The notes: a model not told the origin generated them from the sequence alone. Positions 18,644 to 39,706 are shown, numbered from the stretch's first letter. The stretch is 51,580 nt of DNA from Bacillota bacterium (GCA_017428655.1 JAFRQL010000105.1:1-51580), one strand, 5' to 3'. Numbers and translations are program-made.

Positions 18644-19299
18644 ATACCGGTTACCTCCTGTACTGATACATTTTCATTCTTTGGTTCTTCTTCTGGGATT
18701 GGAGTTTCCTGAGGAGCGGGGCCTTCCGGCTCCGGTCCTGCCGCTGCGGCATCCTGGGGCGGAACCTGCATGCTTTCCTCAGGCTGCTTTTTCTTCTTTT
18801 CCCTCTTTTTCTTCGCGGGCTTGGGGGGCTCCTCTTCGGAGAGCCTGATGCTGCCCGGGAGTTCCCCGGCCAGAGCCTTCAAAGCCCTGTTTATGGAGAT
18901 CAGCCCGCTGATCCCCCTGCCTGCCCAGGCGGTCACGTAGGGGACCTCGCCCTCGTATTCCAGGGTGATCACCACGGGCCTGGTCATAACATATCTGATG
19001 AAGCAGGCTCTCACGTCCGGAAGCTCCTGCAGTATCAGGGCCCGCCCTATGTTCTGCATTGCCTTGGGGACCGCGGCCATCACCGAGAGCCTGGGCTCTT
19101 TGGTATCCAGCCGCCTGGCCTTCCTCGCCAGACCGAAGAACCTTACCGCTCCGGCTCCGTCGCTGATGCCTATGGGGAGCCTGAAATCGTTCTTCGGGAT
19201 GGAACTGAGCCTGCCGTCCTCGGTGGGGAGCATCCTGCCCATCAAAACGTTTTTTACTTCTTTTTCTGTCGTCATCTCTATCCGGCTTCTCTGCTGCAT
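18640..19299 (-). CDS. Hypothetical protein, 219 aa, globular N-part plus lysine/proline/glutamate-rich C-tail
   Basis: ORF is translationally coupled to the STAS gene and begins 7 nt after the coupling-protein stop. No family recognised and no clear SD. Confidence 0.55.
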   Translation of the reverse strand: MQQRSRIEMTTEKEVKNVLMGRMLPTEDGRLSSIPKNDFRLPIGISDGAGAVRFFGLARKARRLDTKEPRLSVMAAVPKAMQNIGRALILQELPDVRACFIRYVMTRPVVITLEYEGEVPYVTAWAGRGISGLISINRALKALAGELPGSIRLSEEEPPKPAKKKREKKKKQPEESMQVPPQDAAAAGPEPEGPAPQETPIPEEEPKNENVSVQEVTGI

Positions 19300-19305
19300 C
19301 CGGGA

Positions 19306-21360: not shown

Positions 21361-21389
21361 GGTCAGGATGCCTCCTTTCCGCTTCGCTT

Positions 21390-22472: not shown

Positions 22473-22486
22473 AGCATCATACCGCC

Positions 22487-25400
22487 TTATTCGGTAACGG
22501 GGTCGGGAGCAGGCGCGTCTTCGGAACCGCCCGCGGAGCTGCTGTCAGAGGTGTCGCCGGCGGAAGATCCCGCATCGGAGGAGCTGCCGCTGTCAGAAGG
22601 AGCGTCTCCACCTTCAGACGGGGAAGCAGACTGGGAACCGCTCTCGCTCTGGCTGCCGCCCTCTTCCGTCGAGGCGCCCTGAGAGGGCGCTTCGGAGGAC
22701 CCTGAGCTGCCGGAGCTTTCAGATGAGCCGGAGGAGCCGGAACTGCCGGAGGATCCGGAGCTTCCGCTGCCGGACATCTCCGCGGCCCTTGCCGCTGCTG
22801 CGGCTGCGGCTGCCGCAGCGGCCGCCTCGTTGGCGCTCTGTTCGTTCTTCCAGAGGGTCACCGCGTTGGTCAGCTGGTCGGCCTCGGGATAGACCTTCAC
22901 GTCCACCGTGAACAGTATATCCTCGAGCTCCTGGCTCCTTACGGTGATCCTGTAGCTCAGATCGCGTCCGGTGAAGTTCCTGGGAGCGGTGAAGTTGACG
23001 TTCCCGTCGTTCCTGAAGCTTCCTGCGGACTTGGTCAGTTCGTTGATTATCGCCTCTACCTGAGCCGCGGCTTCTCTTTCCGCCGCGCTGTCTCCGCTGA
23101 TCCTGCTGAGCTTGGCGCTGCTCAGCAGCTGGGACAGGTAGCTGTCGGTATATCCGTGGGTCGCGCCCAGGCTGGCGGCGCTGGAGGCGCCGGTCTGCGG
23201 ATCGTAGTTCTCGATCTGGGCAGTGATACCCGAGGTGGAGCCGTGGACGGTGGGATCGATCCTCAGCACGTCGCCGGAATCCAGCAGGGTCGAGAGGTTC
23301 TCTCCCGAAGCCACGGTCTTGGCCTGGCTGGGCACTCCTATGGATGCGCTGCCGCTGTAGACCAGACCGGAGAGCAGGATGTCAGCAAGGCCGATATGGG
23401 CAGGCTTGCCCTGGACTATCAGCTGGTCGTAGACCCTGGTGATGGACCTTCCGCCGTTGCCAATGACAGCGGTGAGCCTGCTCAGCTTCCAGGAGGACGC
23501 GATGTAGCCTTCGCTGTTCCTGGGCTCCAGCTCGATGTATCTGAGCTCCGCCATCTCCGGGACCAGGACGCCGATCTCATCGACGCTTCCCGCGGCGAAG
23601 CCGCCTCCCTCGGACACGTAGCTTCTGATGTTGTCTATAGTGTATGTTCTCATCACGCCGTAGGAGTCGTAGTATCCGACGGTCATGGCGATGGGATCTG
23701 TGGTGCCGCTGTGGATGGAGCTGTCGTCTCCCGCGGTCTCAAGGGTGAGCCTGAGCAGACCGACGTTTCCGGAGAAGGGGTACCTGGCGGGCCTCTCCGA
23801 AGGCGAGACGGTGCCGCTGATGCTCCTGGTGAACAGGGTCTCTCCCTCAAAGCTCTGGGCTTCGACGTACATGTTCTGGATCTTCGCGTCCAGGCCTCCC
23901 TGGGCCGTTATGAAGGCTCCGGTGATGTCGCTGACGTTGCCCAGATCGAAATCGATCTCGATGAGCTGGCAGGGCGCGATCTGGGTGATGCCCAGGTCGG
24001 ACAGGTAGATGAACCTGCTCCTGAGCTCCTGGCCCGAGGGATCGTCTCCCTTGAAGAACAGCGCGATGGCAAGATCCTTGTTCATCGGATCCAGCTGCTG
24101 GGTCTTTATGTCCGGACTCATCTGCAGTATGAGCTTCTGAGTGCCGACCTCCTGGACCCTGTCCATGCTGAGGGTCCCGCCAAGGCCCGCGTTGGCCGTG
24201 CCGCCGAGATAGTAGCTCTCGATGAGCACTCCTCCCCTGACTCTCTGGAGCATGCCGTAGTTGATGGGCACGTGGAGATCTTCGGTGAGGGACATGGCCT
24301 TGACGTCGACTCCGTTGATGGCCTCCATGTTGCTGGTGTCGACGCCCAGGGCGTAGAACACGGGCACGTCGTTCTCGTCGACGGTGAACCTCATGGGTCC
24401 GGTGGAGTTCTGCATGGGCAGCTTGGTCATCACGTTGGTGTAGCGGATGGCGCCGGTCATGGTGTAGTTCTCGGGATCGCTGGTCTGATCGGTGATCTGC
24501 GGGTAGAGGAACAGGTTGACGGTGTCGTCCTTTGAGTTGGGCTCTCTCGGGACCACGGTGGTCCACTTGCCCTGCTCGCTGATGCTGATGGGGCTCTCCT
24601 TGAGGGCTATGTTGATCTCCGCGATGGAGTTGTTCTGGTCGGTCCTGTAGACCTGGACGTCCTTGGTCAGTGTCTCGGTCCTGGTCCAGGTGGTGATGAA
24701 GGTAGGCTCCATCCCGACGGGATAACCGTAGTCATACTCGCCGTTGGCGTTGATGAATCTGCGTCCGGTGCCGTTGACCAGGGAGATGTTTATATCCTGG
24801 ATGGGCCAGTTGGTGACCACGTTGCTCCTAAGCTGCAGCTGCATGTCCGCGAACTGGTAGATGTCCTTCACCGTGATCAGGAAGTTGTCGGTAGTGCTTG
24901 CCCTGAACTGGTAGTTGGGGTCGCTGACGTAGTAGTCCAGATCGTTCTCGGTGACCACGGCGTTGTCGTATTCGACGGTGCGGCTCTTGCTTCCGGTGCG
25001 TCCGGTGTACTTGTTCATCAGCTCGATGACGTCTATGCCCTTCTTGAACTGGAACAGTCCGTCGGTGTCGAAGTAGTGATAGGACATGGACATTCCGCCG
25101 GAGTAGACCTCGTCGTTGATCAGTATGCTCTTGCCGTTCTTGTCGGTGACCCTGTGGGTACCGTAATTTCCGGTGGTGATGCTGATGAGGAACTTGGCGT
25201 TGTAGCTGGATTCGGTGATCTGGTATACGGTGGCGATCTCGGAGGCGCTGTGGCCCGCGGCTCCCTTATAGCTGGCGTATTCGCCGGGATCCCTGTAATC
25301 GATGCCTACCCAGCCCAGACCGTTCTCGTCGTTGCTGGACGCGGTCCAGGTGGGGCTGAGAGCGTCGTTGGTCTCCTTTTCCACCGTGATGTATTCGATC

Positions 25401-27898: not shown

Positions 27899-27935
27899 TT
27901 CGATGCTCCTGTAAAAGCTTTGAGACCGGTCATTC

Positions 27936-30900
27936 TTACGCAGTCTCTCTCATCTTTCTGCGCCTGTCCTGCTGAGCCTTGGCCTCATCGGCAAGATCCT
28001 GCAGGCTTATGGTCATAGTCTCCTGACCGTTGCAGCGCATCCTCTCGAAGAGCGACATGTCTCTCAGGTGTGCGGCGAAGCTGCAGAACGAGCTCATGAA
28101 ATCGTCGTCCTCGTCTTCGTCGTCATCATAATCGTCGGTATCGAGGCCTGGTACGGGCTCGTCTTCGATGCTCTCGACGTCCACGGACTCATCCTCGTCA
28201 CCTTCTGCATCCCAGCCGTCGTCCTCGTCCCATTCATCCTCTTCTTCCTCGTCGTCTTCAGCGGAAGCGAACAGGGTCATCAGGTCGCCCTCTTCCTCTT
28301 CTTCGCTGTAGCCTTCGTCGTCGGGAAGAATGTAGCCTTCGGGCTCTTCCGAGGGCTCTTCTCCTGCGGCCTTCGGCTCTTCCTCCGCGGCCGCTTCTGC
28401 CGCGGCTTCAGCGCTTCTGGCCTTTTCCAGCTCCTCCTTCAGGCGGCGGATCTCTTCGTCCTTTTCCTTCTCAAGGCGGATGATCTCCTCATCCTTTTCC
28501 CTGAGCTGCGGGGCGGTCTCCTCTGCTGGAGCCTCTGCGGCCCGGGGCCGGATCTCTTCGGCGGCGCTCTTTTGAGCTGCCCTGGGAGCGGTGCCTTCAG
28601 CTGCGTCCGCCATCCTTCCGAGGGCGTCGGCTATCATGCTGAAGACCGCCATGGTCTGGTCACCGGAGGAAGCAAGACCCGCGAGGCCTGCTCCCGCGGC
28701 GTCTGCCCTGGCCACGGCCTGCTCCGCCTTTGCTCTCTTATCCAGTGCGGAATCGAATTCCTCTATATCGTCCAGGCTCAGGTCGTCGTCATCGTCGATG
28801 TGGAAGGTGACTCCGCCTGCCGCTGCCTTGGACGCCTCTTCGTATTCATCCTCTTCGAACTCGGTGAAGGACACGCCCTTGCCCGAAGCCGCGGGCCTTG
28901 CGCCCTCTTCAGATCCTTCGATGAGCCTGGGCTGCTTCTGCCTTGCGTTCTCTTCATGGAGGGCCCTGCTCACGCCGACGAAGGCCTCCCAGTTCTCGTC
29001 CCCTCCGACGCCGGAGAAGTACCTGCTCTGGTAGTCCCTGCTTTCGAACATGTCCGAGATACCGGGCGCGGTCTCGATCTGGAAGGACGACCTGCTGGTG
29101 GGGCTCATGACGACGAAGGCCTGGCCTCTGGGCGCCTGGACTATCTCTTCCTGCTCGGTCTCGTTGATGCCTCCGGCCTTTTCGTACAGAGTGACCAGGT
29201 CGGACATATCGTTGGGCGCCAGCGAGAAGATGAAGCTGTACTGGCAGGCGTTGATGATCGCGGTGGACTTTCTCGCCAGTTCCTCCGAGCCCACGAAGTC
29301 CTTGATGTTCTGGGTTATGACGATCTGCATTCCGTTGTACTTACGGATGCGCTTGGCCAGCTGGAACATGAAGTCCAGGGCTATGGGGAACTTGGCGTCG
29401 ATGAAGACGTGAGCTTCGTCGATGACCACGACGATCTTGCGGTTGGCGTGGTATTTGGTGTTGTAGTCCCTGTTCTTGATGATCTCGTTGTCTATGTACT
29501 TGAGCACCAGCAGCATCTGCGCGTTGGCGATGGTGTTGTTGCGGTTGGCCAGCATGGACTGGAAGTTGAACACGGTGAAGTTCTCGTCGGTGGTGACGGT
29601 GGAGGGACCGTTCCAGATGTTGGCGTTGCGGCCGCCGGTGGAGAACTTGGCGATGTAGTTCATCAGGGTGCGGAGCAGGTCCCTGGTGAAGGGGTTGTCG
29701 CTGCTCTGGAACTCCTGGAGGACCTCGTCGTAGAGGTCGTCGAAGATCGGATAATCTGCCGGGCCCAGCTTTGAAAGGTCGGTGTCCGCGGTGATGTCCT
29801 TGCTCATGTACATGTGGTCCACGAGGGTGTTGAGATACTCCATCGCGTCCTTCTCGCAGTCGGGCATGATCTGCTTGAAGAACTCCTCGAGGAACTGCAG
29901 GTGGGTGGCGTAGCTGCCGCTGGGGCCCTCTTCTCCCGCTTCATCGTCGTCGAGGGCAGTGATGATGTGGAAGGGGTTTAGCCTGCCGTACTGGGCGTTG
30001 CCCACGTTGATGATCTGGCCGTGGAGGTTGGCCGCCAGCTCGGAATACTCGTTCTCAGGGTCGAGGATGAAGATCTTGGCGTCCTCGGCGGCAAGGTTGG
30101 TCAGCAGGGACTTGGTCGCGTAGGATTTACCGGAACCGGACTTGCCCACGATGACCATGTTGCTGTTGACCCTCTCGCTGTCCCTTCTGAAGAAGTCGAT
30201 GAACACGGGGATGCCGTCGCTCTCGCCCAGCTTTATGCCTCCCTCATCGGAGACGTGGGCGAAGATCCAGGGGAAGCAGGCAGCTACGGTATTGCTGGAG
30301 ATGCCTCTGCCGTCCTTGGCCAGAGGATCCAGGGCGCTGATCTGGGAGCCGATGAAGGCCTGGACCTGGTCGAACTCCATGTTGTTGAGCCTGAATCCGC
30401 TCTCCTGCCACGCCCTTCTGATGTTCTTCTTCATCTCGTTGAAGTTGGGCAGCTGGCTCTCGGGGGGCTGGGGGATCTTGTAATTGTTCCTGGTGGAAAC
30501 TATGTCGTAGGCGGTGATGTAGATGTTGGTCTCGAGCAGGGACTCGCTGTCGTTCTGAAGGGTGGTCAGAAGGTCCTGCAGGGTCGAGATGTGGGTCTCG
30601 ATCTCCATGCGCCTGGAATCCACGCCGGTGGCGGACCACTGTCCCCTCAGCTCGGTGAGGGAGTGGTCGATGTTCCTGATGGCCTTGCCCCTGTCCATGG
30701 GCGTGCACTTTACGACCACCTTGGTGCCGGGCATGCTCATGACCGAGGCCAGCCAGGCGTCTCCCACCGTGGTCGGGTAGTTCACCACGCGGAAGTTGTG
30801 GGTGATTATATGATTGACCTCGACTCTTCTGGGCTTGATGTCCACGATGTTGGGCTGGGCCCAGATATGGTAGTCCTCGGGACGGATCTTCTCGATGTCC

Positions 30901-32117
30901 CTCTCGTCGAAATCGATCTGATTGGAGTACTTGAGGAAGATGGCCAGCTCCTTGTCGTCCAGCCTCTTCACGGTCATCTCGCCGTTCTTCAGCAGCTGCT
31001 CGGCCTCTCTGATCTGGTTCTCCAGCTGGCGTTTGTCGCTCTCAAAGAGCACCAGGTAATAGAAGCTGTCGGTGATCTTCCTGTTGGTGCAGTATCCGTT
31101 GACCTCGTTGATGCGGTCGTACTCCACCTCGACTCTGGCCTTGAGCTCGTCCTCTTCCAGGACGCCATTCTCGTAGCTCTGGCTGAGCATCTCCAGCTTC
31201 TCGTATTCCTTGTCCAGGTAGCGGTCGTACATGATGGGCCGCTCCAGCTTCACGATGTTGGCGCTGTAGCCGGGATGGATGGACCTGAGCACCCTGCCCA
31301 GGCAGTTCTCGATGGAGTTGTTCCTTCTGTGCTGGCTGAAGAAGCGGAATTCCACGGGATCGATCTGAAGGACCGCCCCGTAGTAAGATCTGTTCAGATA
31401 TTCGATATAGCCGTCCTTGATCCCGGTGAAGGGGATGATCTCCTCCATGTCGGCCCTGCTCTTCTCGGCGTCCTTCGCCTCGGCGAGTTTTTGCATGGAG
31501 ACGCGGCTCTCTTCTTTTCTTCTCTCGCGGATGGCTTCCTTTTCTTCTTCGGAAGCTTCTTTGCTCTTGAGGATCCGGTCCTCTTCCTTTCTGGCCTTTT
31601 CCCTGGCCTTGGCCTCCTGCCTGGCTTCCTTCTTTCCGGTCTTTTTGACCGCGCTGGCTACCGCCCTGTCGTCGTCGCTTCCGGCCTGCAGCCTCGCCTT
31701 TTCCTCGGCCCTGGCTTCGGCCTTCTGCTCTCTGCTGATCCTTCTTTTCTCCGCTCTGGTGAGCTCTCTCTTGCTGCCTTCTCCGAAGGCCTGGTCGAAG
31801 GCGGCCTCCTTTTCGCCCTTTTCCCTGACCTCTTCGAGCATCTGATCGTTTTTGACCCTCTCGAAGCGGCGCTTGTAACCGATGAACGTAAGGATGTGGA
31901 GTATGTATACGAAGTTGGGCTGCTCGTCCATCCTGAAGAGCAGGAGGGCCGTCAGCGCCGCTATCCCGATGAGGATCCCGCCCTTCCAGGGAAGATTCGA
32001 GACCAGCACGAAGATGACCATCGCCATGGCGATCCCCGCGACTATCACGTCGCCCAGGGTCACGCCCTTGAACAGCTCTATGCTTACTTTTGTTTTACCG
32101 GGTATAAGTCTCGGCAT
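27936..32117 (-). CDS. PrgI/VirB3-like membrane domain fused to a VirB4-family T4SS ATPase, with a charged coiled-coil insert and an acidic C-terminal extension of about 350 aa (1393 aa total)
   Basis: The N-terminal 2-TM segment (KVSIELFKGVTLGDVIVAGIAMAMVIF...ILIGIAALTALLLF) resembles PrgI/VirB3. The VirB4 core has IIPFTGIKDGYIEY...LQIDPVEF, Walker A MVIVGKSGSGKSYATK and Walker B KIVVVIDEAHVF. The tail is D/E-rich (DDEEEEDEWDEDDGWDAEGDEDE). Confidence 0.85.
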   Translation of the reverse strand: MPRLIPGKTKVSIELFKGVTLGDVIVAGIAMAMVIFVLVSNLPWKGGILIGIAALTALLLFRMDEQPNFVYILHILTFIGYKRRFERVKNDQMLEEVREKGEKEAAFDQAFGEGSKRELTRAEKRRISREQKAEARAEEKARLQAGSDDDRAVASAVKKTGKKEARQEAKAREKARKEEDRILKSKEASEEEKEAIRERRKEESRVSMQKLAEAKDAEKSRADMEEIIPFTGIKDGYIEYLNRSYYGAVLQIDPVEFRFFSQHRRNNSIENCLGRVLRSIHPGYSANIVKLERPIMYDRYLDKEYEKLEMLSQSYENGVLEEDELKARVEVEYDRINEVNGYCTNRKITDSFYYLVLFESDKRQLENQIREAEQLLKNGEMTVKRLDDKELAIFLKYSNQIDFDERDIEKIRPEDYHIWAQPNIVDIKPRRVEVNHIITHNFRVVNYPTTVGDAWLASVMSMPGTKVVVKCTPMDRGKAIRNIDHSLTELRGQWSATGVDSRRMEIETHISTLQDLLTTLQNDSESLLETNIYITAYDIVSTRNNYKIPQPPESQLPNFNEMKKNIRRAWQESGFRLNNMEFDQVQAFIGSQISALDPLAKDGRGISSNTVAACFPWIFAHVSDEGGIKLGESDGIPVFIDFFRRDSERVNSNMVIVGKSGSGKSYATKSLLTNLAAEDAKIFILDPENEYSELAANLHGQIINVGNAQYGRLNPFHIITALDDDEAGEEGPSGSYATHLQFLEEFFKQIMPDCEKDAMEYLNTLVDHMYMSKDITADTDLSKLGPADYPIFDDLYDEVLQEFQSSDNPFTRDLLRTLMNYIAKFSTGGRNANIWNGPSTVTTDENFTVFNFQSMLANRNNTIANAQMLLVLKYIDNEIIKNRDYNTKYHANRKIVVVIDEAHVFIDAKFPIALDFMFQLAKRIRKYNGMQIVITQNIKDFVGSEELARKSTAIINACQYSFIFSLAPNDMSDLVTLYEKAGGINETEQEEIVQAPRGQAFVVMSPTSRSSFQIETAPGISDMFESRDYQSRYFSGVGGDENWEAFVGVSRALHEENARQKQPRLIEGSEEGARPAASGKGVSFTEFEEDEYEEASKAAAGGVTFHIDDDDDLSLDDIEEFDSALDKRAKAEQAVARADAAGAGLAGLASSGDQTMAVFSMIADALGRMADAAEGTAPRAAQKSAAEEIRPRAAEAPAEETAPQLREKDEEIIRLEKEKDEEIRRLKEELEKARSAEAAAEAAAEEEPKAAGEEPSEEPEGYILPDDEGYSEEEEEGDLMTLFASAEDDEEEEDEWDEDDGWDAEGDEDESVDVESIEDEPVPGLDTDDYDDDEDEDDDFMSSFCSFAAHLRDMSLFERMRCNGQETMTISLQDLADEAKAQQDRRRKMRETA

Positions 32118-32196
32118 TTCTATTTCCTCTCATTCCCTGTAAAGCTGGTCTGATGATCGGGATCCGGCCTTGATCATGGGGCCGGGGACGGGCAGA

Positions 32197-34302
32197 TCAC
32201 AGAGTAGGTCTGCGCCTGGGGATGCCCGCGTCGTCCGAGGACCTTCCGCTCAGCGAATTGCCCTTGCCCTGAGGACCGGGAGCGTCCGGGCCTCCGAAGC
32301 CGGCGTTCTGCCTCAGCCTGTTGGTCGAAGAGCTGCCGGACGGGGCTGCGGGAGCCTCCGCGCTCCGGTATCTCTGAGGCAGCGGAGGCGGGTTCTGGGC
32401 CGCGCCGTTGTTGGCCGGCTGGGCTCCGGGACCCTGACCGTTGTTCTGCTGGTTCTGTTGATTCTGCTGGTTCTGTGGGACGGGGGGATTGGCAGGTCCC
32501 GGCTGATTGGCGGGTCCGGGCGGATTGGCGTTGTTGGGCGGAGCGGGCTGGTTCTGGCTGTTGTTCTGCTGATTCTGCTGGTTCTGCATCATCTGCTGGA
32601 TGTTCTGCAGAGACTGAGCCTGCTGCTGCTGATAGTTAGGCCCTCCGAAGTTCCAGGGGGAAAGGTTCTTCCACTTCTGTCCCAAAGCCTGGAAGGGCTG
32701 CTTGATGGTGTTGGTGACAGGCGAGAGGGCAAAGCCCGCGGTGGCTCCCGCGATGCCCGCGGCCTTTCCGACCGCCTTGCCCACGGCGCCCTTGGCTGCT
32801 CCCACGAGGCCTCCTGCGGAGGAGCTCATGTCGCCCGCCATGATGGACTGCCAGCCGGCGTTGTCCGCCAGGATACCGGTGAACAGCGAGGTCGCCTTCT
32901 TGGCCGCCTCGAAGCCACCGTAGACCAGCATGAACTTGGCCAGCATGTTGATCAGAGCGCTTCCTGGGATCAGCACCAGCTTGGGGCTCATCACCATGGG
33001 AAGATAGATGAGCAGTATCCGCATGGATATCACCGTGCCGAAAACGCTCAGCGACTGGATTATGAAGGCCGTGCCCCACTGCTTGAACTTGCCGCCGCCG
33101 TCGAAGGGCATGGCCGCGATGACGGGAGGCGCGATCACATACAGGAAGAGCATGTTGAAGAGCCTGGCGATGCAGTTGAGGATGATGACCACCAGATCGT
33201 AGATGATGGCCATGGAAGTGAGCCAGACCAGGATGTAGTCGGTGGCAAAGCCTATGTCAAAATCCGAGGATACGTTGTCGAAATTGTAGATGTTGCGCCC
33301 CTCGTCGTAGTAATAGGGGCCTCTCAGAGCGTCGTCCAGGGACGGATCCGAGTTGAACGAGGAGTTCTTCGCCGCGCCAAGGGTCCCCATCAGGAAGACC
33401 ATGCGGTCCAGATGGATGTCTTCGTCGGCGTTGTACTTTCTGCTGGCGCTTGGGACCGCCAACACCGTGCCGTTGTTCTTCAGGTAGTCCATGGCGTTGG
33501 TGATGCTCTCCGCTATGCCCTGATTGTAGACGTCCACCTTGGCGTCGGTGCGAAGATCCGCCGCCTTGGCTATCCCCGCCAGGACCGACTGCCAGGATTC
33601 TGTCACATTGCCATTGGAGTCGGTATCGTAATACGAATAATCGAAGACGCCCTCATCCTGAAGGTAGAGCATGTCCCCCCTTATGTCGTTGAAGCAAAGG
33701 TTTATGTTGTACCGGTTGTTGCTGTTGGGGACCATGGCGTAATTGCCTATCTTCGCCAGGATCCTGCCCATGGCCGCGTACTCGTATTCGTTGAAGACCT
33801 TGGTCTTGGGCTGGTCCAGATGATAGGCGTCGTTGAAGATGTAGTTGACCTGCTGCATCAGGATGTTGGTTGCGCTCAGGACCACGTTGACCACGAGGGT
33901 CATGCTGAAGATCAGGACTATGCTCCTGATGGCGGAGCTGATGATCTGGCCCATGGACTGCTGATGCTTTCCGGCGAGGTCGAACATCTTCTGGATCACC
34001 GCCCACATGGTGAACACGAACACCAGGACCAGGCCGATGACGGCCATGCCCCAGTAGATGTTGCTCACCACCTTGTTGGAGAAGAAGATGTTGATCAGGT
34101 AGTCGCGGTTGCCGTCGTAGCTGGCCTTGTCGATGCCGGAAAACACCTGGAACAGCTGGGTCAGGATGTTTATGATGCGGCAAAGAGCTCTCTCTATGAA
34201 ATAGCAGAGCTTAAAGATCGTGGCATTCAGTATGGATTCCAGGATCGAGCTGAAGGTCGAGCCCAGAAAATCTTTTATTCCGCCCCAAAGGGAATCGAGC
34301 AT
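32197..34302 (-). CDS. Polytopic membrane protein, candidate VirB6/TrbL-type channel subunit, with a Q/N/P-rich C-terminal tail (701 aa)
   Basis: SD TAGGAGG is 8 nt before the ATG at 34302. Multiple TM helices are split by a roughly 230-aa extracytoplasmic loop. Its position directly upstream of the VirB4 gene is typical for VirB6 analogues. The assignment rests on architecture and context only. Confidence 0.5.
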   Translation of the reverse strand: MLDSLWGGIKDFLGSTFSSILESILNATIFKLCYFIERALCRIINILTQLFQVFSGIDKASYDGNRDYLINIFFSNKVVSNIYWGMAVIGLVLVFVFTMWAVIQKMFDLAGKHQQSMGQIISSAIRSIVLIFSMTLVVNVVLSATNILMQQVNYIFNDAYHLDQPKTKVFNEYEYAAMGRILAKIGNYAMVPNSNNRYNINLCFNDIRGDMLYLQDEGVFDYSYYDTDSNGNVTESWQSVLAGIAKAADLRTDAKVDVYNQGIAESITNAMDYLKNNGTVLAVPSASRKYNADEDIHLDRMVFLMGTLGAAKNSSFNSDPSLDDALRGPYYYDEGRNIYNFDNVSSDFDIGFATDYILVWLTSMAIIYDLVVIILNCIARLFNMLFLYVIAPPVIAAMPFDGGGKFKQWGTAFIIQSLSVFGTVISMRILLIYLPMVMSPKLVLIPGSALINMLAKFMLVYGGFEAAKKATSLFTGILADNAGWQSIMAGDMSSSAGGLVGAAKGAVGKAVGKAAGIAGATAGFALSPVTNTIKQPFQALGQKWKNLSPWNFGGPNYQQQQAQSLQNIQQMMQNQQNQQNNSQNQPAPPNNANPPGPANQPGPANPPVPQNQQNQQNQQNNGQGPGAQPANNGAAQNPPPLPQRYRSAEAPAAPSGSSSTNRLRQNAGFGGPDAPGPQGKGNSLSGRSSDDAGIPRRRPTL
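32370..32640 (-). repeat. Q/N/P low-complexity coding region with reiterated CAGAACCAGCAG-type units
   Basis: The protein reads PNYQQQQAQSLQNIQQMMQNQQNQQNNSQNQPAPPNNANPPGPANQPGPANPPVPQNQQNQQNQQNNGQ. On the plus strand TTCTGCTGGTTCTG recurs. Confidence 0.75.
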
Positions 34303-34314
34303 CGCCCCGGCCTC

Positions 34315-35298
34315 CTATCCTATCCTGAGCCTCTTGCGTTTGATCATCACATAAGCGATGACAGCGGCTATGCTTGCTATCACCAGCGCTATGAATATCC
34401 AGCTGCCGGTGTCAAAATACATAAGTATCGAAAAATCGTATTCCTTCACATTCCCAGCGGCGTCGTATGCCCTGAGGACGTATATCCCGGTGTCCCTGAT
34501 GACTCCGGTGCCGTCGGCCTCGACGTAAACGTCGGTAAGCTCCCCGTTGCGAAGAAGGCTCAGGGTGCCGCCCTTCTCAACGCCGGAGAACTTTAAGGCG
34601 CTCCTCACCTGGTTATCGTCTCCGATCTTCCCCTGGAAGGCCAGAGCCGGAGGGGTCCTGTCGATCTCAACGCTGAGGGTGTACGCCAGATCGGTGCTCA
34701 TGCACTCGTATTCGACCTCGTAGACGCCCTCCTTGGTCATGTCGACCACATATCTGTCGGAGTATGCGTCCTGGCCGTCGAGGGTCGCCGATGTGACGAA
34801 GAACCCGTCGGGGACGGTGAACCTCTGGATGGCGTTGGAATAGGGGCCGACCAGGGTGAAGGACATGATCCTCCTAGAGCCGCCGCCGACTCTTGCCTGG
34901 ACCACGTAGTCTCCCGCCTCGTTGATGGTGGACAGGTCTCCGGTGTATTCGGCGCCGTTGTGGTAGACTCCCACGGTCTCGTCGCCGCCGGTGTCCACGC
35001 TCACCGGAACGTTGAGGTACATGCCGTCAGCCGCGGTCACATGGACCTCGGTCAGGCTGCCGTCTATGGGATAGACGTAGTCGTGGGTCGACCAGTCGTA
35101 ATACATGGTGTTCGATATCTGGACCCTGTCCGTGCCCGATACTGTCTCTACGGCACTGCCGGCGGGCTGGTTGGTCATGGGATCCAGCACTCCGGAGTAT
35201 TCGACGTCGGCGAAGACCGGCGCCGCCAGGAGCAGGAGCAGGACCAGGGCGGCTGCCGCAGCAAGAGCCCTCAGGGTCTTTTTTACAGTCATATCCAT
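34315..35298 (-). CDS. Surface protein, 327 aa: signal peptide, beta-rich ectodomain, C-terminal TM anchor with basic tail
   Basis: Signal peptide is ALAAAAALVLLLLLAAPVFADV. C-terminal anchor is WIFIALVIASIAAVIAYVMIKRKRLRIG, with no LPXTG before it. SD AAAGGAGG is upstream. Confidence 0.65.
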   Translation of the reverse strand: MDMTVKKTLRALAAAAALVLLLLLAAPVFADVEYSGVLDPMTNQPAGSAVETVSGTDRVQISNTMYYDWSTHDYVYPIDGSLTEVHVTAADGMYLNVPVSVDTGGDETVGVYHNGAEYTGDLSTINEAGDYVVQARVGGGSRRIMSFTLVGPYSNAIQRFTVPDGFFVTSATLDGQDAYSDRYVVDMTKEGVYEVEYECMSTDLAYTLSVEIDRTPPALAFQGKIGDDNQVRSALKFSGVEKGGTLSLLRNGELTDVYVEADGTGVIRDTGIYVLRAYDAAGNVKEYDFSILMYFDTGSWIFIALVIASIAAVIAYVMIKRKRLRIG

Positions 35299-35352
35299 GC
35301 CCTTTGGGGCCTCCTTTCTTTAAAGCTGCGGTGCGCGGGGCACTGCGTCATA

Positions 35353-37878
35353 CTAGTACTGATGGTTCTTCAGCTGCTCCTTCTGATTGTCTGGGACGAC
35401 GAAGTACGGGATCTCCTTTTCCGGAACGTCGGTGAGGAGCCTCGGATCGGTCATCTTTGAGCTCAGATATACCGGTCCGATGTATCTGAGCTCGTAGTAC
35501 ATCTTCATCTTCTCGCTGTAGTAGTAGATGTAGATCTCGGAGCGGTCGCCCGAATGTTCAAAGCTCCTCAGGTCCACGAAATAGTAGACCTTCAGTTCGG
35601 GATCGTAGTAGACCGTATTGTTCTCGTAATCGGTGGCGGCGTCCCTTCCGGAGTTCGGACCGATCACGCCGCTCCTGGTCCTGTATCCGTCGGGAAGGCT
35701 CTTCGCGTTGTATTCGGTGTCGGACGAGCTGGGTACCGGGGCGTTGCCCTTGAAATAGGAAACGTCGCCGCTGTCGTTTACGAATACATATCTCTGAAGG
35801 TCCTTGTCGAAATAGTAGATCCTGCCGTCTATGGAGGATTCGAACCAGTAGACCTCTATGATCTTGTCGTAATAGACCACCGAGCTCCTTGCATCGTCCT
35901 CGTAATGGATCTGCTCTCCCCTGTGGCCGGTGCGGTTGGCCATATCGGTGTCGATACTGTGAGAGGATGAGATCATGAAGATGTTATCGTTTCCGTAGAT
36001 GCCGTCCTTGGCGATCCTGGCCGCGGCAGTGTCCTCTCTTATGGACATGCCGGGATAGTCCTGTCCGGTTATCCTGCTGCTTACGAGCTGAAGACCGCCT
36101 CCCTCGAGGCCGACGCCTACGAAGACCCTTCCGTCCTTCCTGTTCTCGATGGTATGGTCCTGATAGACCTCGAAATTCTCGGAAATGATGGCACCGTAGT
36201 TTACGCAGTGGGCGCCTTCGCTGAAGATGATCCCGGTCTTGCCGCCGCCGACCACCTTGCAGTCGGGCATCACTATCATGGTGCCGTCGCAGACTATCCT
36301 GCCGCCTTCGGCGCCGGGCTCCTGCATGGGAGCGAGGACGCCGTAGCCCTCGGAAAGGCTGTCGTTGTCCGTCTCAAGCTCCTGCACCAGAAGGGTCCCG
36401 CCGGGCTCGACGACTATGGTGCCGTTGTTTATGACCCAGCCGGAGACCGAGAGCACTCCGCCGTCCTTGACGTAGATGGTGGCGTTGCTCCCGATGACGA
36501 TGGGGCCGTCCAGACTGGATACCTGGCCGTCCTGCACTGTAAAACTGGTCTGTATAAAGCTCATGGGCACGGGCTCAGCATAGTATATGTCGAAGCCGAT
36601 ATCATAGCTGTTGTTTAAGGTATTATCCAGGTAATGATCGGCAGAAAAACCGTTTCCCGCGGCAGTCGCAAGGTTGCTGCGGCTGTGCATGAGAGAGATC
36701 ATGTCCGCATAGAGGTCCATGTAGCGTACGTGATTCTGGATATTCGCCCTGTCCTGGTCAGGATAGTAGCTCTCCACATAGAATCCGTAGTTGCTGTTGG
36801 TCTGCAGGTGATACTTTCCGTCCGTGGTCTGAAAGGCCAGCCAGCTGCGGCGTCTGAGGGTAATGTTTTTATCAGGGAGGACATCCTTCGATCCGCTGGC
36901 AAAGGGCTTCATCCTCCAATTAGGATCCGTCCAGTTGGCCACCGTACCGCCCAGGGAACGGTCAGAACCGCTTGCCACGTTGCTTGTGGCCACGGGGCTT
37001 TCTATGCCGAGATACCAGTCGAAGCTGGCGGTCTGGACCGCCTTGGTGCCGAAGAACTGATCAAATTCGTCATAATCCACGTGGAAGGAATAATCCCCGG
37101 TGAGCCAGGCATATCCGCTTTCGTAGTCCGCATAGGGCACCTGTATGGCGTAGTAGCCCACCTGGCCCTGGACCTCGCCATACTGCTTCTCGGTGCGGCC
37201 TATTCCCAGATAACTCTGAGTCCAATCCGTAAAACGGTCATCGGCCTCCTTGCGAAGCTCCAGCCGGGAGGCGAGTCCCCCTCCCCATACATAGCCCTTA
37301 GGGATATCCGTGGGCTCGTAGACCGCTATAAAGCGGGGGAGCGGAGGCAGGGAAAGGCTCACCGCAGTGCCGCCGTTTTTTACGGACTCAAAGTCGAAGT
37401 CCAGCTGGTCGACCCTGGCGGTCTCTTTCATAGGATATCTTCTTACCCTGTGGAACATGCCTGCGGGCGAAGATTCCGTGCCTTTGTCCCGGGGAATATC
37501 CAGCTTATTACTCCAATCGGATTCCCTTGTCTGATATGGAAGATCCTCCCACCTTCTTGCAATACGATGGGTCTGCTCGCCGTTTTTGAGCATATCCTGA
37601 AAGTTGCTGTCCGCAAGAAGGTAATATTTATCGTCCCATACCAGAAGCACCGGATAGGCTGTATGCTTTGCATCCGGCCTGATGGGAGGCACACCCTTGT
37701 GCCAGTAGTAGACCATGCTCTTGGTGATGGTGGGGTCCTTAAAGCCGGACGAATCGATATTGAATTCGTCCGCCAGGGCGACGGTGAGGCTGGTCAGGAG
37801 CATCACCACGCAGATGAGCCCGGAGAACAGGCCGGGCATGGATCTTTTTATCTTGTTTATGATGGAACTGTTCGCCAT
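35353..37878 (-). CDS. Large secreted protein, 841 aa: signal peptide, central beta-helix-like segment, C-terminal aromatic (YY/YF) repeats
   Basis: Signal peptide is LFSGLICVVMLLTSLTVALADE. Middle segment reads GSNATIYVKDGGVLSVSGWVINNGTIVVEPGGTLLV...IVCDGTMIVMPDCKVVGGGKTGIIFSEGAHCVNYGAII. C-terminal repeats read VVYYDKIIEVYWFE..RIYYFDKDLQRYVF..TVYYDPELKVYYFVD..IYIYYYSEKMKMYYEL. Confidence 0.65.
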   Translation of the reverse strand: MANSSIINKIKRSMPGLFSGLICVVMLLTSLTVALADEFNIDSSGFKDPTITKSMVYYWHKGVPPIRPDAKHTAYPVLLVWDDKYYLLADSNFQDMLKNGEQTHRIARRWEDLPYQTRESDWSNKLDIPRDKGTESSPAGMFHRVRRYPMKETARVDQLDFDFESVKNGGTAVSLSLPPLPRFIAVYEPTDIPKGYVWGGGLASRLELRKEADDRFTDWTQSYLGIGRTEKQYGEVQGQVGYYAIQVPYADYESGYAWLTGDYSFHVDYDEFDQFFGTKAVQTASFDWYLGIESPVATSNVASGSDRSLGGTVANWTDPNWRMKPFASGSKDVLPDKNITLRRRSWLAFQTTDGKYHLQTNSNYGFYVESYYPDQDRANIQNHVRYMDLYADMISLMHSRSNLATAAGNGFSADHYLDNTLNNSYDIGFDIYYAEPVPMSFIQTSFTVQDGQVSSLDGPIVIGSNATIYVKDGGVLSVSGWVINNGTIVVEPGGTLLVQELETDNDSLSEGYGVLAPMQEPGAEGGRIVCDGTMIVMPDCKVVGGGKTGIIFSEGAHCVNYGAIISENFEVYQDHTIENRKDGRVFVGVGLEGGGLQLVSSRITGQDYPGMSIREDTAAARIAKDGIYGNDNIFMISSSHSIDTDMANRTGHRGEQIHYEDDARSSVVYYDKIIEVYWFESSIDGRIYYFDKDLQRYVFVNDSGDVSYFKGNAPVPSSSDTEYNAKSLPDGYRTRSGVIGPNSGRDAATDYENNTVYYDPELKVYYFVDLRSFEHSGDRSEIYIYYYSEKMKMYYELRYIGPVYLSSKMTDPRLLTDVPEKEIPYFVVPDNQKEQLKNHQY

Positions 37879-38054: not shown

Positions 38055-38333
38055 CTACTTGATAGTGCCCTTTCTGATGGAATTGACCCACTTGATCATC
38101 TGAGGCATCATGATCTTCAGTGCGAGGATCAGGACGAAGATGAGCAGGAATCCGATAAGGGCGTTCTTCAGCGCTCCCTTGGCCTTTTCCCTGTCCTGAG
38201 GCTCTTCCGCCTTGGCATACTTGACGCCAAGAATGACGCAGTAGACCGAGCCGGCAGCGCCCACCAGACCCAGAAGCGGGGTCAGCATGGATTCGATCAG
38301 CTCGATAATGGGATTGGCAACAGCATCAAACAT
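38055..38333 (-). CDS. Small 2-TM protein, VirB2/TrbC pilin-like (92 aa)
   Basis: Start set at the ATG at 38333 behind GGAAGGAGA; the ORF-track start at 38429 runs through the promoter motif. Hydrophobic helix LTPLLGLVGAAGSVYCVILGV, charged loop KYAKAEEPQDREKAKGALKN, then helix ALIGFLLIFVLILALKIMM, the classic VirB2/TrbC layout. It is the first gene of the locus. Confidence 0.5.
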   Translation of the reverse strand: MFDAVANPIIELIESMLTPLLGLVGAAGSVYCVILGVKYAKAEEPQDREKAKGALKNALIGFLLIFVLILALKIMMPQMIKWVNSIRKGTIK

Positions 38334-38381: not shown

Positions 38382-38425
38382 ATTCTCAATTTGAACTCTA
38401 ACAAGGGCTGTCCAACAAATGTCCA
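38382..38425 (-). promoter_or_regulatory. Activator-type promoter: TGGACA-TTTGT-TGGACA direct repeat plus a -10-like GAGAAT 21 nt downstream (copy A)
   Basis: CTGTCCAACAAATGTCCA (plus, 38408-38425) is identical to 16075-16092. GAGAAT is at 38387-38382 (minus). A 13-bp palindrome CCGGAC-A-GTCCGG (38366-38378) follows. It lies in the gap between the kinase stop and the pilin-like gene. Confidence 0.55.
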
Positions 38426-38452
38426 ACAAGGCCCCGCAATAAAATCAAGCGG

Positions 38453-39706
38453 TCAGATCAGGTCCCTGGCGTCGGGTATCCTGATGGTTATGGTGGCCCC
38501 TTCGCCCTCGGTGCTGTCCACGGTGAGGGTCCCGCCGCACATCTTCTCGATCCTCTCCTTGACGTTCCGAAGACCGATATGGGTATCGTCGGCGTTCATG
38601 GCCTGCTCCACGTCGAACCCCTTGCCGTTGTCCATTATGACTATGATATGGCCGCCCTCGCCCTTTCTGGTGACCACCGAGATCATCCCGTCGCGCCTGA
38701 TGCGAACCCCGTGGCGTATGGCGTTCTCCACCAGGGGCTGGACGGTGAGGGCCGGCAAGGTGAAGCCGGTGTCCTGGATGTCGTAGCTGATGGCGATGTG
38801 GGAGAAGCGCAGCTGCTCTATGTCGGTGTAGATCTTCGTGTGCTCGATCTCGGTCTCGATGGGTATCAGCCTGGGCTGGCTCAGGGAATCGATGTTCTGG
38901 CGAAGGTAGGTCCCGAACCTTTCGACGGTATCCGCCGCCTTTTCAGGGTCGATGAGGCAGAGGGCCTGGATGGTCGACAGGGTATTGTAGAGGAAATGAG
39001 GCTGGATCTGGCTCATCATGATGTGGATCCGCTGCTCGGCCATGAGGGAGTTCTCGTGGGCCCGGACGAACTGCAGGTGGAGCCAGATGTAATAAAAGAC
39101 GGCGCAGCTCACCGAGGTGATGGTCAGATAGCTTATGATGGCATCTACGGCGAAGATGGTGTCGGCCATGGCGGCGGTGATGATCAGGACGCAGCAGACT
39201 ATCGGGATGACCGACTCGGTCTTTTTCGAATGGTAGAAGGTCTTAAGGGACCTTTGGACCAGAACGATCAGGAATATGAAGCTCAGGACGTGGCACATGA
39301 AGCCCATGGGGCCTCTGTGGAACTTGTTGTCCTCGGTTATGGTGAAGGCGAGGGGCGCGAAGAAGGCTGTAAAATATACGGCGGCATTGACTCCGACCAT
39401 GACCTTGGGCAGGGTCAGGTCGCTCCCGCTGTCGATGAGCCTTAAGAAGAGCACCAGTATGAATGGCCTTACGGCGTAACCGTAGGCGCTGACGAATATC
39501 CTGAAAGGGACGTTGACCGCCAGGGTCAGATGGTAGCTGAGAAGGTCCTGGACCACCAGGCTGGCCTCCAGCCACAGGGTGATGAAGAACAGTCTTCTCT
39601 GCCTCTCCTGCATGTAGGGATCCATCAGGACCGCATAATATACGCCTACCAGCTGCAGGATCAGCGGCACCAGCACCTTTATGACCATCGAGATATCCTG
39701 GTCCAC
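38453..39706 (-). CDS. Sensor histidine kinase, LytS/YehU-type (PF06580-like His_kinase plus HATPase), multi-TM sensor domain
   Basis: QIQPHFLYNTLSTIQ signature, then LTVQPLVENAIRHG, DNGKGF and GIGLRNV-like boxes. Start is probably the GTG at 39706, 6 nt after AAAGGAGG; the ORF-track TTG at 39730 has no SD. Confidence 0.8.
   Translation of the reverse strand: MDQDISMVIKVLVPLILQLVGVYYAVLMDPYMQERQRRLFFITLWLEASLVVQDLLSYHLTLAVNVPFRIFVSAYGYAVRPFILVLFLRLIDSGSDLTLPKVMVGVNAAVYFTAFFAPLAFTITEDNKFHRGPMGFMCHVLSFIFLIVLVQRSLKTFYHSKKTESVIPIVCCVLIITAAMADTIFAVDAIISYLTITSVSCAVFYYIWLHLQFVRAHENSLMAEQRIHIMMSQIQPHFLYNTLSTIQALCLIDPEKAADTVERFGTYLRQNIDSLSQPRLIPIETEIEHTKIYTDIEQLRFSHIAISYDIQDTGFTLPALTVQPLVENAIRHGVRIRRDGMISVVTRKGEGGHIIVIMDNGKGFDVEQAMNADDTHIGLRNVKERIEKMCGGTLTVDSTEGEGATITIRIPDARDLI

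What the first reader, a model, noticed from the sequence alone, without database searches (positions are those of the whole stretch)
38382..38425. Identical 18-bp TGGACA-N5-TGGACA direct-repeat motif at two promoters of the locus (second copy at 16049-16092)
Seen in sequence:
- CTGTCCAACAAATGTCCA occurs at 38408-38425 and again at 16075-16092. I did not notice it elsewhere in the window.
- On the coding (minus) strand it reads TGGACA-TTTGT-TGGACA, two hexamers with 11-bp periodicity.
- In both copies a -10-like hexamer (GAGAAT / TATGAT) lies exactly 21 nt downstream, and there is no -35 consensus at the expected place (CAGCCC / CAGGCC).
- Copy A precedes the first structural gene (pilin-like). 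Copy B sits in the only large internal gap and precedes the two orphan hydrophilic genes.
- Copy A is followed by the palindrome CCGGAC-A-GTCCGG (38366-38378), which reuses the GGACAG core.

Established knowledge: OmpR/PhoB/SARP winged-helix regulators bind direct repeats spaced one helical turn apart and replace the -35 contact.

Inference: the adjacent REC-wHTH regulator (39759-40577) activates both promoters, tying the secretion genes and the two orphans into one regulon.
Basis: partly seen in the sequence, partly recalled or inferred. Interest (0 to 1): 0.7.

Follow-up and report, generated by a model that had tools for sequence, protein, structure and literature searches.

The report
Response-regulator binding box at two promoters
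Two identical TGGACA-N5-TGGACA repeats mark activator-dependent promoters that probably let the neighbouring two-component regulator switch on a Gram-positive type IV secretion locus and two linked genes of unknown function, and the same promoter design recurs in many rumen and gut Clostridia.

Summary
The 18-mer occurs exactly twice in the window, against 0.01 expected. Both copies are intergenic and lie on the coding strand, one before the T4SS pilin operon and one before the two orphan genes.

Every one of 14 boxes in contigs retrieved by protein homology, not by motif, has the form TGGACA-N5-TGGACA-N8-TANNNT. A metagenome scan for the repeat alone gave 123 unique instances. A -10 hexamer sits exactly 8 bp after the second repeat in 86 of them (70%), and an HK/RR homologue lies within 6 kb of 39.

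One detail is wrong. The functional -10 is TAGAGT / TATCAT at +8, not GAGAAT / TATGAT at +21. Only 6 of 122 instances have a -10-like hexamer at +21.

An 11-bp repeat period with the 3' repeat 8 bp from the -10 is the rule for SARP activators. The regulator's effector domain folds most like the SARPs AfsR and EmbR.

This is therefore a REC-fused, SARP-like regulator in Clostridia with a new operator sequence. Its predicted regulon covers the T4SS, partner-switching genes and large Pfam-less proteins. Binding and activation remain untested.

The parts
38409..38429 (-). Box A. Two 11-bp direct-repeat units, TTGTTGGACA-T-TTGTTGGACA, with hexamers at 38420-38425 and 38409-38414. Predicted operator for the adjacent response regulator.
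   Evidence: The same box lies between RR and pilin in L085, L087 and L089.
38395..38403 (-). Extended -10 of promoter A. TGT-TAGAGT, with the hexamer at 38395-38400, 8 bp after the proximal repeat. The predicted transcription start is near 38388.
   Evidence: The +8 position is conserved in 85 of 122 instances. TG at -15/-14 is enriched.
38055..38333 (-). T4SS pilin gene (PF18895; NCBIfam Mbov_0395 family), the first gene of the secretion operon driven by promoter A.
16137..37878 (-). The rest of the T4SS-like operon, in order: 841-aa protein, 327-aa protein, 701-aa VirB6-like protein, 1393-aa VirB4-like ATPase, 1803-aa PLAT protein, 360-aa protein, VirD4 coupling protein, 219-aa protein, STAS protein, RsbW-like kinase, SpoIIE PP2C phosphatase.
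   Evidence: The gene order is the same in L085/L087/L089 and in L336/L338.
16076..16092 (-). Box B. TGGACA-TTTGT-TGGACA, with hexamers at 16087-16092 and 16076-16081. The upstream unit lacks the TTGT prefix and reads TCGC.
   Evidence: L336 has a perfect box at the equivalent place, right after SpoIIE.
16062..16067 (-). -10 hexamer of promoter B, TATCAT, 8 bp after the proximal repeat. The predicted transcription start is near 16055.
15176..15940 (-). Orphan 1. 254 aa, highly charged, no Pfam match. First gene of the promoter B unit.
   Evidence: A 31-35% homologue is directly preceded by the box in L090.
13765..15147 (-). Orphan 2. 460 aa, hydrophilic, no Pfam match.
   Evidence: Homologues lie in box-driven operons in L090 and L092, and right after SpoIIE in L336 and L338.
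13679..13706 (-). Intrinsic-terminator-like hairpin (12-bp stem, then a T run) that closes the promoter B transcription unit.
39759..40577 (-). Response regulator. REC domain with the conserved acidic pocket, then a winged helix, then about three BTAD-like helices (the 'SAPR family').
38453..39706 (-). Cognate sensor histidine kinase. About six transmembrane segments, then PF06580 His_kinase and HATPase_c.
40669..40697 (-). Ordinary sigma-70-like promoter (TTGTAA-17-TATAAT) upstream of the RR-HK pair. No TGGACA box is present, so the pair is apparently not autoregulated in this species.

Best explanation
The two 18-mers are operators for the adjacent two-component response regulator, a REC domain fused to a SARP-like winged-helix effector.

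Proposed mechanism (inferred):
- The polytopic PF06580-type kinase phosphorylates the regulator.
- Two regulator protomers then bind head-to-tail, one on each 11-bp unit (consensus TYTGTTGGACA).
- The units occupy roughly -41 to -20. They overlap the place where a -35 would be and end 8 bp before an often extended (TGn) sigma-A-type -10.
- From there the regulator recruits RNA polymerase in place of a -35 contact, as the SARP AfsR does.

Predicted transcription units:
- Promoter A drives the about 22-kb T4SS-like operon, from the pilin gene to SpoIIE.
- Promoter B drives the two hydrophilic orphans and ends at the terminator at 13679-13706.

What is shown: the motif, its fixed geometry, its conservation and its genomic linkage to this regulator family. 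What is inferred: direct binding, dependence on phosphorylation, and activation as opposed to repression.
For: (1) The motif is non-random: 2 hits against 0.01 expected.

(2) In contigs retrieved by protein homology only (RR, orphan-460 or SpoIIE), all 14 boxes from about 10 species-level contigs have TANNNT exactly 8 bp after the second hexamer. These are window A and B, L085, L087, L089 (two), L090 (two), L092, L214 (two), L215, the L005 variant and L336.

(3) Controls:
- 74 unrelated loci (1.18 Mb) contain no perfect box.
- None of 135 look-alike matches in viral contigs has TANNNT at +8.

- 86 have TANNNT at +8, and TATAAT is the commonest form.
- The offset profile shows 85 at +8 against about 3 per offset elsewhere and 6 at +21. 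TG is enriched at -15/-14.

(5) Linkage to the regulator: 39 of 123 instances have an HK/RR homologue (48-62% identity) within 6 kb. Boxes lie upstream of HK/RR genes, pilin operons and STAS/RsbW/SpoIIE genes.

(6) The regulator:
- Its REC domain has the invariant D7, D8, D53, T81 and K101.
- The effector-domain model (pLDDT 81) matches the SARPs AfsR and EmbR best (TMq 0.61-0.64), ahead of PhoB-type DNA-binding domains (0.41-0.49).

(7) The published SARP rule is direct repeats 11 or 22 bp apart with the 3' repeat 8 bp from the -10 (PMC10936776). The geometry here is identical.

(8) The sigma-70 scanner calls no promoter at either box, as expected for an activator-dependent promoter.

(9) The L005 regulator has a changed stretch before its predicted DNA-reading helix (YDRSMQKQ to YGHSQQKY), and its box is TGGATA-N5-TGGATA-N8-TATAAT.
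Against: - There is no experimental binding, footprint or transcription-start data.
- The BTAD part is short (about three helices), poorly modelled (pLDDT 44-59), and not detected by Pfam.
- The Trans_reg_C match is barely above threshold (28 against 26.2 bits).
- Two close RR homologues (L006, and L213 from Blautia) have no box within the DNA held for them, about 14 and 21 kb.
- About 60% of metagenome boxes have no HK/RR gene within 6 kb. This fits regulation in trans but leaves room for another binder.
- A box overlapping the -35 region could in principle mediate repression.
- The L005 covariation is a single case.
Confidence: 0.8

Rival explanations
1. The regulator binds at about -50 to -34, upstream of a -10 located 21 nt after the proximal repeat (GAGAAT / TATGAT). 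This would be an OmpR/PhoB-style class II site.
For: Both window copies do have a -10-like hexamer at +21. L087 has TAGAGT at +21 as well.
Against: Across 122 related boxes, TANNNT occurs at +21 in only 6, against 85 at +8. L085 and L089 have no -10-like hexamer at +21. The TG of an extended -10 lines up with the +8 hexamer.
Confidence: 0.05
2. The same regulator binds the box but represses. By sitting over the -35 and spacer region it blocks a weak sigma-A promoter, in which the upstream TGGACA acts as a 5-of-6 match to the -35 hexamer.
For: TGGACA matches TTGACA at 5 of 6 positions. The box overlaps the core promoter (sequence).
Against: - The spacing from the upstream hexamer to the -10 is a fixed 19 bp, outside the usual 16-18 bp. 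The sigma-70 scanner finds no promoter there.
- The duplicated 11-bp unit and the 8-bp rule are hallmarks of SARP activators.
- Boxes also precede the regulator's own genes in L089 and L214 and in metagenome contigs, a pattern typical of positive autoregulation.
Confidence: 0.1
3. A different factor reads the box. One candidate is an alternative sigma factor released by the STAS / RsbW-like / SpoIIE partner-switching module encoded in the locus. Another is an unlinked repressor.
For: A partner-switching module sits in the operon and often neighbours the box elsewhere. About 60% of metagenome boxes have no HK/RR gene within 6 kb.
Against: - No sigma-factor gene lies in the locus.
- The -10 is sigma-A-like (TATAAT, with TGn), and the element is a tandem repeat, unlike a -35 element.
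- The strongest genomic association is with the HK/RR pair. Boxes also occur at HK/RR loci where no partner-switching gene was detected in the DNA held (L214).
Confidence: 0.04
4. The two copies are chance, or remnants of a repeat or mobile element, with no regulatory role.
For: Similar 11-bp TGGACAT-type tandem arrays occur in viral contigs as iteron-like arrays of three to five copies.
Against: - The in-window expectation is 0.01.
- Position, strand and distance to a -10 are conserved across many species, while the flanking sequence is not.
- None of the 135 viral look-alikes has the +8 -10.
Confidence: 0.01

Closest known systems
SARP activators and their operators (Streptomyces AfsR / afs box, ActII-ORF4, DnrI; M. 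tuberculosis EmbR)
   Same: - Tandem direct repeats with an 11-bp period.
- The 3' repeat lies 8 bp from the -10.
- The box overlaps the -35 and spacer region of a promoter that lacks a usable -35 (PMC10936776).
- The effector domain's best structural matches are AfsR and EmbR.
   Different: - The repeat sequence is TTGGACA, not TCGAG-type.
- The regulator carries an N-terminal receiver domain and is paired with a membrane histidine kinase.
- The BTAD is cut down to about three helices.
- The host is Clostridia, not actinomycetes.
- The targets are a T4SS-like locus, partner-switching genes and Pfam-less proteins, not antibiotic clusters.
OmpR/PhoB-family response regulators (E. coli PhoB pho box; B. 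subtilis PhoP TT(A/T/C)ACA-N5 repeats; the latter from my own knowledge)
   Same: - REC plus winged helix.
- Head-to-tail binding to direct repeats one helical turn apart, replacing the -35.
- The hexamer-N5-hexamer layout resembles the B. subtilis PhoP site.
   Different: - The receiver is closest to LytR/BtsR-type receivers.
- The kinase is PF06580 (LytS/YesM type), not HisKA.
- The DNA-binding domain carries C-terminal BTAD-like helices and scores only marginally on Trans_reg_C.
COG3947 'SAPR family' response regulators (REC-wHTH-BTAD)
   Same: This regulator belongs to that annotated group. Database names on homologues P0092, P0109 and P0113 say so.
   Different: My literature searches found no characterised member, operator or regulon for this group. 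The operator and regulon proposed here would be the first.
Bordetella BtrU/BtrV/BtrW partner-switching module in the type III secretion locus (from my own knowledge, not checked here)
   Same: A STAS protein, an RsbW-like kinase and a PP2C phosphatase are encoded inside a secretion-system locus.
   Different: It is a different secretion system and phylum. Here the module is also a transcriptional target of the TGGACA-box regulator in many contigs.

Membership tests
SARP-type activator-dependent promoter | Two or more direct repeats spaced 11 (or 22) bp apart | tested here: met
   The hexamers are 11 bp apart in both window copies and in all related boxes.
SARP-type activator-dependent promoter | The 3' repeat lies 8 bp upstream of the -10 hexamer | tested here: met
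   14 of 14 homology-anchored boxes and 85 of 122 metagenome boxes have TANNNT at +8. Other offsets average about 3. The rule is quoted from PMC10936776.
SARP-type activator-dependent promoter | Weak or absent -35 element at canonical spacing | tested here: met
   The sigma-70 scan finds no promoter at either box. The upstream hexamer is 19 bp from the -10.
SARP family regulator | OmpR-type winged-helix DNA-binding domain followed by a bacterial transcriptional activation domain (BTAD) | tested here: inconclusive
   The winged helix is present (Pfam 28 bits against a 26.2 cut-off). The best fold matches are AfsR and EmbR at TMq 0.61-0.64. However, only about 45 residues (three helices) follow it, they are modelled at low confidence, and Pfam detects no BTAD.
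SARP family regulator | Direct binding to the repeats and activation of transcription | not testable with these tools
   This needs EMSA or footprinting, in-vitro transcription, or genetics.
OmpR/PhoB-family two-component regulator | Phospho-accepting receiver domain with the conserved Asp pocket, Thr and Lys | tested here: met
   D7, D8, D53, T81 and K101 are invariant in 28 homologues. Pfam Response_reg scores 74 bits.
OmpR/PhoB-family two-component regulator | Trans_reg_C effector as the C-terminal end of the protein, with a cognate HisKA-type kinase (a working criterion from my own knowledge of the family, not a published definition) | tested here: not met
   The effector has extra C-terminal helices. 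The kinase is PF06580. The receiver is closest to LytR/BtsR/MrkE-type receivers.
Alternative-sigma promoter (sigma-54, sigma-B/F or ECF type) | A single -24/-12 or -35/-10 pair with the spacing and sequence of that sigma (consensus sequences recalled from my own knowledge, not scanned here) | tested here: not met
   The upstream element is a tandem duplicate. The -10 is TATAAT-like with TGn. No sigma gene lies in the locus.
Iteron or tandem-repeat array of a plasmid or phage | Three or more tandem units near a replication gene, with no fixed promoter geometry | tested here: not met
   There are only two units per site, each followed by a -10 at +8. Viral arrays with the same unit have three to five copies and no -10 at +8.

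The most novel reading that the evidence does not exclude
The TGGACA box may define the regulon of an uncharacterised Clostridial REC-SARP two-component system. In this reading its core output is a chromosomal monoderm T4SS with no relaxase gene found nearby, together with its secreted cargo. The two orphans, and the very large Pfam-less hydrophilic proteins that follow the box in other contigs, would be T4SS substrates. The embedded STAS / RsbW / PP2C module would gate secretion post-translationally. If so, the promoter motif would be a practical way to find Gram-positive T4SS effectors in rumen and gut commensals.
Probability: 0.3. Interest if true: 0.75.

Novelty: new variant of a known kind. 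Interest (0 to 1): 0.6.

Why it matters
- SARP-type activation is treated as an actinomycete speciality tied to antibiotic clusters. Here the same promoter design (11-bp repeats, 8 bp to the -10) appears in rumen and gut Clostridia. It is driven by a phosphorylatable receiver domain and is wired to a secretion machine.
- The result gives a widespread regulator family a concrete, testable operator and a draft regulon. The family has more than 1,600 homologues at E <= 1e-10, and my literature searches found no characterised member.
- It functionally links two Pfam-less genes of unknown function to a T4SS-like locus.
- It gives a simple sequence handle (TGGACA-N5-TGGACA-N8-TANNNT) for finding co-regulated, possibly secreted, proteins in uncultured Firmicutes.

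Tried and rejected
- **Genome scan wasted.** The genome-contig scan with the RR alignment was dominated by generic receiver-domain hits. Only L005 and L006 were close relatives. The 74 unrelated loci were reused as a negative control. No genome-wide regulon scan of the source MAG was then possible.
- **Sequence searches against solved structures.** The full-length RR search and the effector-profile search could not separate SARP from OmpR. The best E-values were about 0.01 for ArlR and 0.28 for EmbR. A fold search of the full-length model was dominated by the receiver domain. Only the effector-only model discriminated.
- **Palindrome.** CCGGAC-N-GTCCGG was rejected as part of the element. It is not conserved and its hairpin is not significant.
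Rejected.
- **Close RR homologues without a box.** L213 (62%) and L006 (53%) have none within the DNA held for them, about 21 and 14 kb. Adjacency is therefore not universal.
- **L092.** It has no box directly before the orphan-257 homologue. The nearest box is one gene upstream.
- **Literature searches.** Searches for PF18895, COG3947, REC-SARP in Clostridia, TGGACA direct repeats and non-conjugative monoderm T4SS found no description of this system.
- **Pfam and NCBIfam.** Neither gives anything for the two orphans.

Full report
**1. Observation**

The 18-mer CTGTCCAACAAATGTCCA lies at 16075-16092 and 38408-38425 on the + strand. These are the only two matches in the 51.6-kb window even when three mismatches are allowed. 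The expectation is 0.01, and none of 100 shuffles gave two hits.

On the minus strand, which carries every gene of the locus, it reads TGGACA-TTTGT-TGGACA-G. An alignment of the two intergenic regions shows that identity is confined to this block. The bare hexamer is common in the window (41 against 21 expected), mostly inside genes. Only the paired form is informative: at up to 2 mismatches there are 4 hits against 3.4 expected, and the two perfect ones are the sites in question.

**2. Gene context**

Reading along the minus strand, the locus contains:
- PcrA, then LigA.
- A response regulator (39759-40577): REC, winged helix, and a short C-terminal helical extension.
- A histidine kinase (38453-39706): about six transmembrane segments, then PF06580 and HATPase_c.
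- Box A.
- A T4SS pilin (PF18895; NCBIfam Mbov_0395 family).
- Proteins of 841, 327 and 701 aa. The 701-aa protein is MMCAP2_0566 / VirB6-like.
- A 1393-aa VirB4-like ATPase.
- An 1803-aa protein with a PLAT domain, then a 360-aa protein.
- A VirD4-type coupling protein, then a 219-aa protein.
- A STAS protein, an RsbW-like kinase and a SpoIIE-type PP2C phosphatase.
- Box B.
- Two hydrophilic proteins with no Pfam match (254 and 460 aa).
- A strong terminator-like hairpin at 13679-13706.
- Housekeeping genes.

No relaxase or integrase turned up in the window; the genes at 45-51 kb are known only from the Pfam tags of the same-species locus L001, and short ORFs were not scanned. The source is a rumen-type Clostridia MAG.

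**3. Conservation in loci found by protein homology, not by motif**

- *Regulator homologues of 65-70% identity* lie in HK-RR-pilin-T4SS loci (L085, L087/L088, L089). Each has TTGTTGGACATYTGTTGGACA between the regulator and the pilin gene. L089 has a second box upstream of its HK-RR genes.
- *A 56% homologue in a Eubacterium isolate* (L214) has two perfect boxes, one of them ahead of a small gene followed by HK and RR. L215 has a box with one mismatch.
- *L005* (58%) has a variant, TGGATA-N5-TGGATA.
- *Homologues of orphan 2* are rare (13 found). Two were looked up, giving three contigs (L090/L091, L092). They lie in operons of large Pfam-less proteins that are themselves preceded by perfect boxes. 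In L090 the box directly precedes a homologue of orphan 1.
- *Orthologous T4SS loci reached through the SpoIIE protein*:
  - L336 has a perfect box immediately after the SpoIIE stop, the position of box B. It is followed by a 167-aa gene and a 1310-aa protein that contains an orphan-2-like region.
  - L338 has an orphan-2 homologue directly after SpoIIE with no box, presumably co-transcribed.

Both promoters, and the membership of the orphans in the regulon, are therefore conserved across species.

**4. Promoter geometry**

In all 14 homology-anchored boxes a TANNNT hexamer starts exactly 8 bp after the second TGGACA. Examples are TAGAGT, TATCAT, TAAAAT, TACAAT, TAAGCT, TATAGT, TAGTAT, TATGAT, TATTCT, TATAAT and TATTGT.

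As a test that does not presuppose the -10, I scanned metagenome contigs for TTGTTGGACATNTGNTGGACA alone. The scan hit its 120-contig limit and gave 123 unique instances.
- 86 of these have TANNNT at +8, and TATAAT is the commonest form.
- Positions -15/-14 relative to that hexamer are enriched for TG, the mark of an extended -10, which is typical of Firmicutes promoters that lack a -35 (the last point from general knowledge).

Two negative controls support specificity. The 74 unrelated bacterial loci (1.18 Mb) contain no perfect box. None of 135 matches to the core pattern in viral contigs has TANNNT at +8. Many of those matches are three- to five-copy tandem arrays or lie in coding sequence.

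In the window, the simple sigma-70 scanner finds no promoter at either box. It does find a conventional one (TTGTAA-17-TATAAT) upstream of the regulator gene.

**5. Link to the regulator**

Of the 123 metagenome instances, 39 have a homologue of this HK or RR (48-62% identity) within 6 kb. Among contigs with at least 6 kb of flank the fraction is about 40%. By a rough estimate of mine (about 12 kb out of a roughly 3-Mb genome, not a computed control), fewer than about 1% of random positions would lie that close to a gene present once or a few times per genome.

Genes downstream of the boxes include:
- the HK/RR genes themselves;
- STAS, RsbW-like and SpoIIE genes;
- T4SS pilin operons (L283, L303, L304, L319, L328);
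- exported proteins and lipoproteins;
- peptides with a Gly-Gly leader;
- very large hydrophilic proteins without domains.

**6. What the regulator is**

The receiver has the invariant acidic pocket, Thr and Lys. By sequence it is closest to LytR/BtsR/MrkE-type receivers, which fits the PF06580 kinase.

The effector is a marginal Trans_reg_C match. Databases label homologues 'SAPR family, REC, wHTH and BTAD'.

An AlphaFold model of the effector alone (pLDDT 81) matches the SARPs best: AfsR (8hvr, 8k60) and EmbR (2ff4, 2fez), at TMq 0.61-0.64 over 110-165 columns. PhoB, SaeR and ArlR DNA-binding domains score 0.41-0.49 over about 85 columns. The BTAD-like part is short and poorly modelled, so full SARP membership remains inconclusive.

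**7. Mechanism**

The published rule for SARP promoters is direct repeats 11 or 22 bp apart, with the 3' repeat 8 bp from the -10. In that system the box overlaps the -35 and spacer region and a side-by-side dimer contacts sigma region 4 (PMC10936776). The geometry found here is the same.

I therefore propose that the phosphorylated regulator binds as a tandem pair to the two 11-bp units at about -41 to -20. From there it would activate sigma-A-dependent transcription of the T4SS operon (promoter A) and of the orphan pair (promoter B).

- Shown: the motif, its geometry, its conservation and its linkage.
- Inferred: direct binding, dependence on phosphorylation, and the sign of regulation.

One suggestive covariation exists. 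The L005 regulator differs in the stretch before its predicted DNA-reading helix (YDRSMQKQ to YGHSQQKY), and its box is TGGATA instead of TGGACA. This is a single case.

**8.

- The -10 is at +8, not +21.
- The palindrome at 38366-38378 is not conserved, and its hairpin is not significant.
- The regulator is SARP-like and not a standard OmpR/PhoB pair.

The main conclusion, one regulator tying the secretion genes and the orphans into a single regulon, stands and is considerably strengthened.

**9. Novelty**

Searches of the paper library found no description of this operator, of a characterised REC-SARP regulator in Firmicutes, or of this T4SS-like locus. I rate it a new variant of a known kind: SARP/OmpR-style direct-repeat activation, in a new host lineage, with a new domain fusion, recognition sequence and target set.

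Noticed in passing
window 16137-18643 (-); also L336 9268-11749 and L338 9253-11764: A complete partner-switching module (STAS protein, RsbW-like kinase, SpoIIE PP2C phosphatase) forms the 3' end of the T4SS operon and is conserved in orthologous loci. Homologues of this RR family often sit next to STAS/RsbW genes (L213, L215, L005, L006). Several metagenome boxes lie directly upstream of STAS genes (L226, L285; L325 and L335 have a TAGATA / TAAATA near-miss at +8). No sigma-factor gene is nearby, so what the module controls is unknown.
   Followed up: partly
window 16137-38333 (-): I found no relaxase, integrase or replication gene near the T4SS-like locus within the 51-kb window (the 45-51 kb end was checked only through the Pfam tags of L001). 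It is flanked by housekeeping genes (ligA, pcrA, an aminotransferase, an M20 peptidase). Its flanks differ between species (L085, L087, L089). It may be a chromosomal, non-conjugative monoderm T4SS.
   Followed up: partly
window 27936-32117 (-): The 1393-aa VirB4-like ATPase is 80-85% identical over about 870 residues between species whose regulators are only 65-70% identical. It is also unusually long for a VirB4.
   Followed up: no
window 22487-27898 (-): An 1803-aa protein carries a PLAT/LH2 domain, a lipid- or membrane-binding fold that is mostly eukaryotic. It lies inside the secretion operon and is conserved in L336 and L338 (40-44% identity).
   Followed up: no
L115, L177, L118, L100, L173, L197 (viral contigs); L234, L270, L272 (metagenome): The same 11-bp unit (TGGACATYTGY) occurs as tandem arrays of three to five copies in viral contigs, without the +8 -10, like iterons or multi-site operators. 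In L234 a four-copy array ends in a proper +8 TAAAAT ahead of an HK gene. L272 has five boxes in 2 kb with no evident gene.
   Followed up: no
L005 10887-10917, with the RR at 10001-10771: A variant box, TGGATA-TTGGA-TGGATA-N8-TATAAT, lies next to a 58%-identical regulator whose stretch before the predicted DNA-reading helix differs (YGHSQQKY against YDRSMQKQ). This may be a specificity switch.
   Followed up: partly
L241, L248, L306 (metagenome contigs): Small ORFs downstream of boxes encode peptides with a double-glycine leader (for example MANEVKLNDNELGNVTGG). Bacteriocin-like peptides may therefore belong to the regulon in some lineages, which hints at a quorum-sensing-like input. L241 has a proper TANNNT at +8; L248 and L306 have the near-miss TATAAA.
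   Followed up: no
window 39734-39748 (-): A terminator-like hairpin (GCGGGC-TCT-GCCCGT, then a T run) lies between the RR stop and the HK start. It may attenuate kinase expression relative to the regulator. In the orthologous loci the gene order is HK-RR, not RR-HK.
   Followed up: no
window 135-8605 (-): This gene set looks like the methylaspartate pathway of glutamate fermentation: methylaspartate ammonia-lyase, mutase E chain, MutL, fumarase-like subunits with a B12-binding domain, and CitF- and CitE-like lyase subunits.
   Followed up: no
window 45200-48000: A low-GC patch (0.45 against about 0.59) holds several short ORFs. The same-species locus L001 shows ParE/Phd toxin-antitoxin pairs and an HTH gene upstream of pcrA there.
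   Followed up: no
window 38366-38378 (-): The palindrome CCGGAC-T-GTCCGG lies in the pilin 5' UTR. It is not conserved in orthologues, and the predicted hairpin is no more stable than shuffled sequence.
   Followed up: yes
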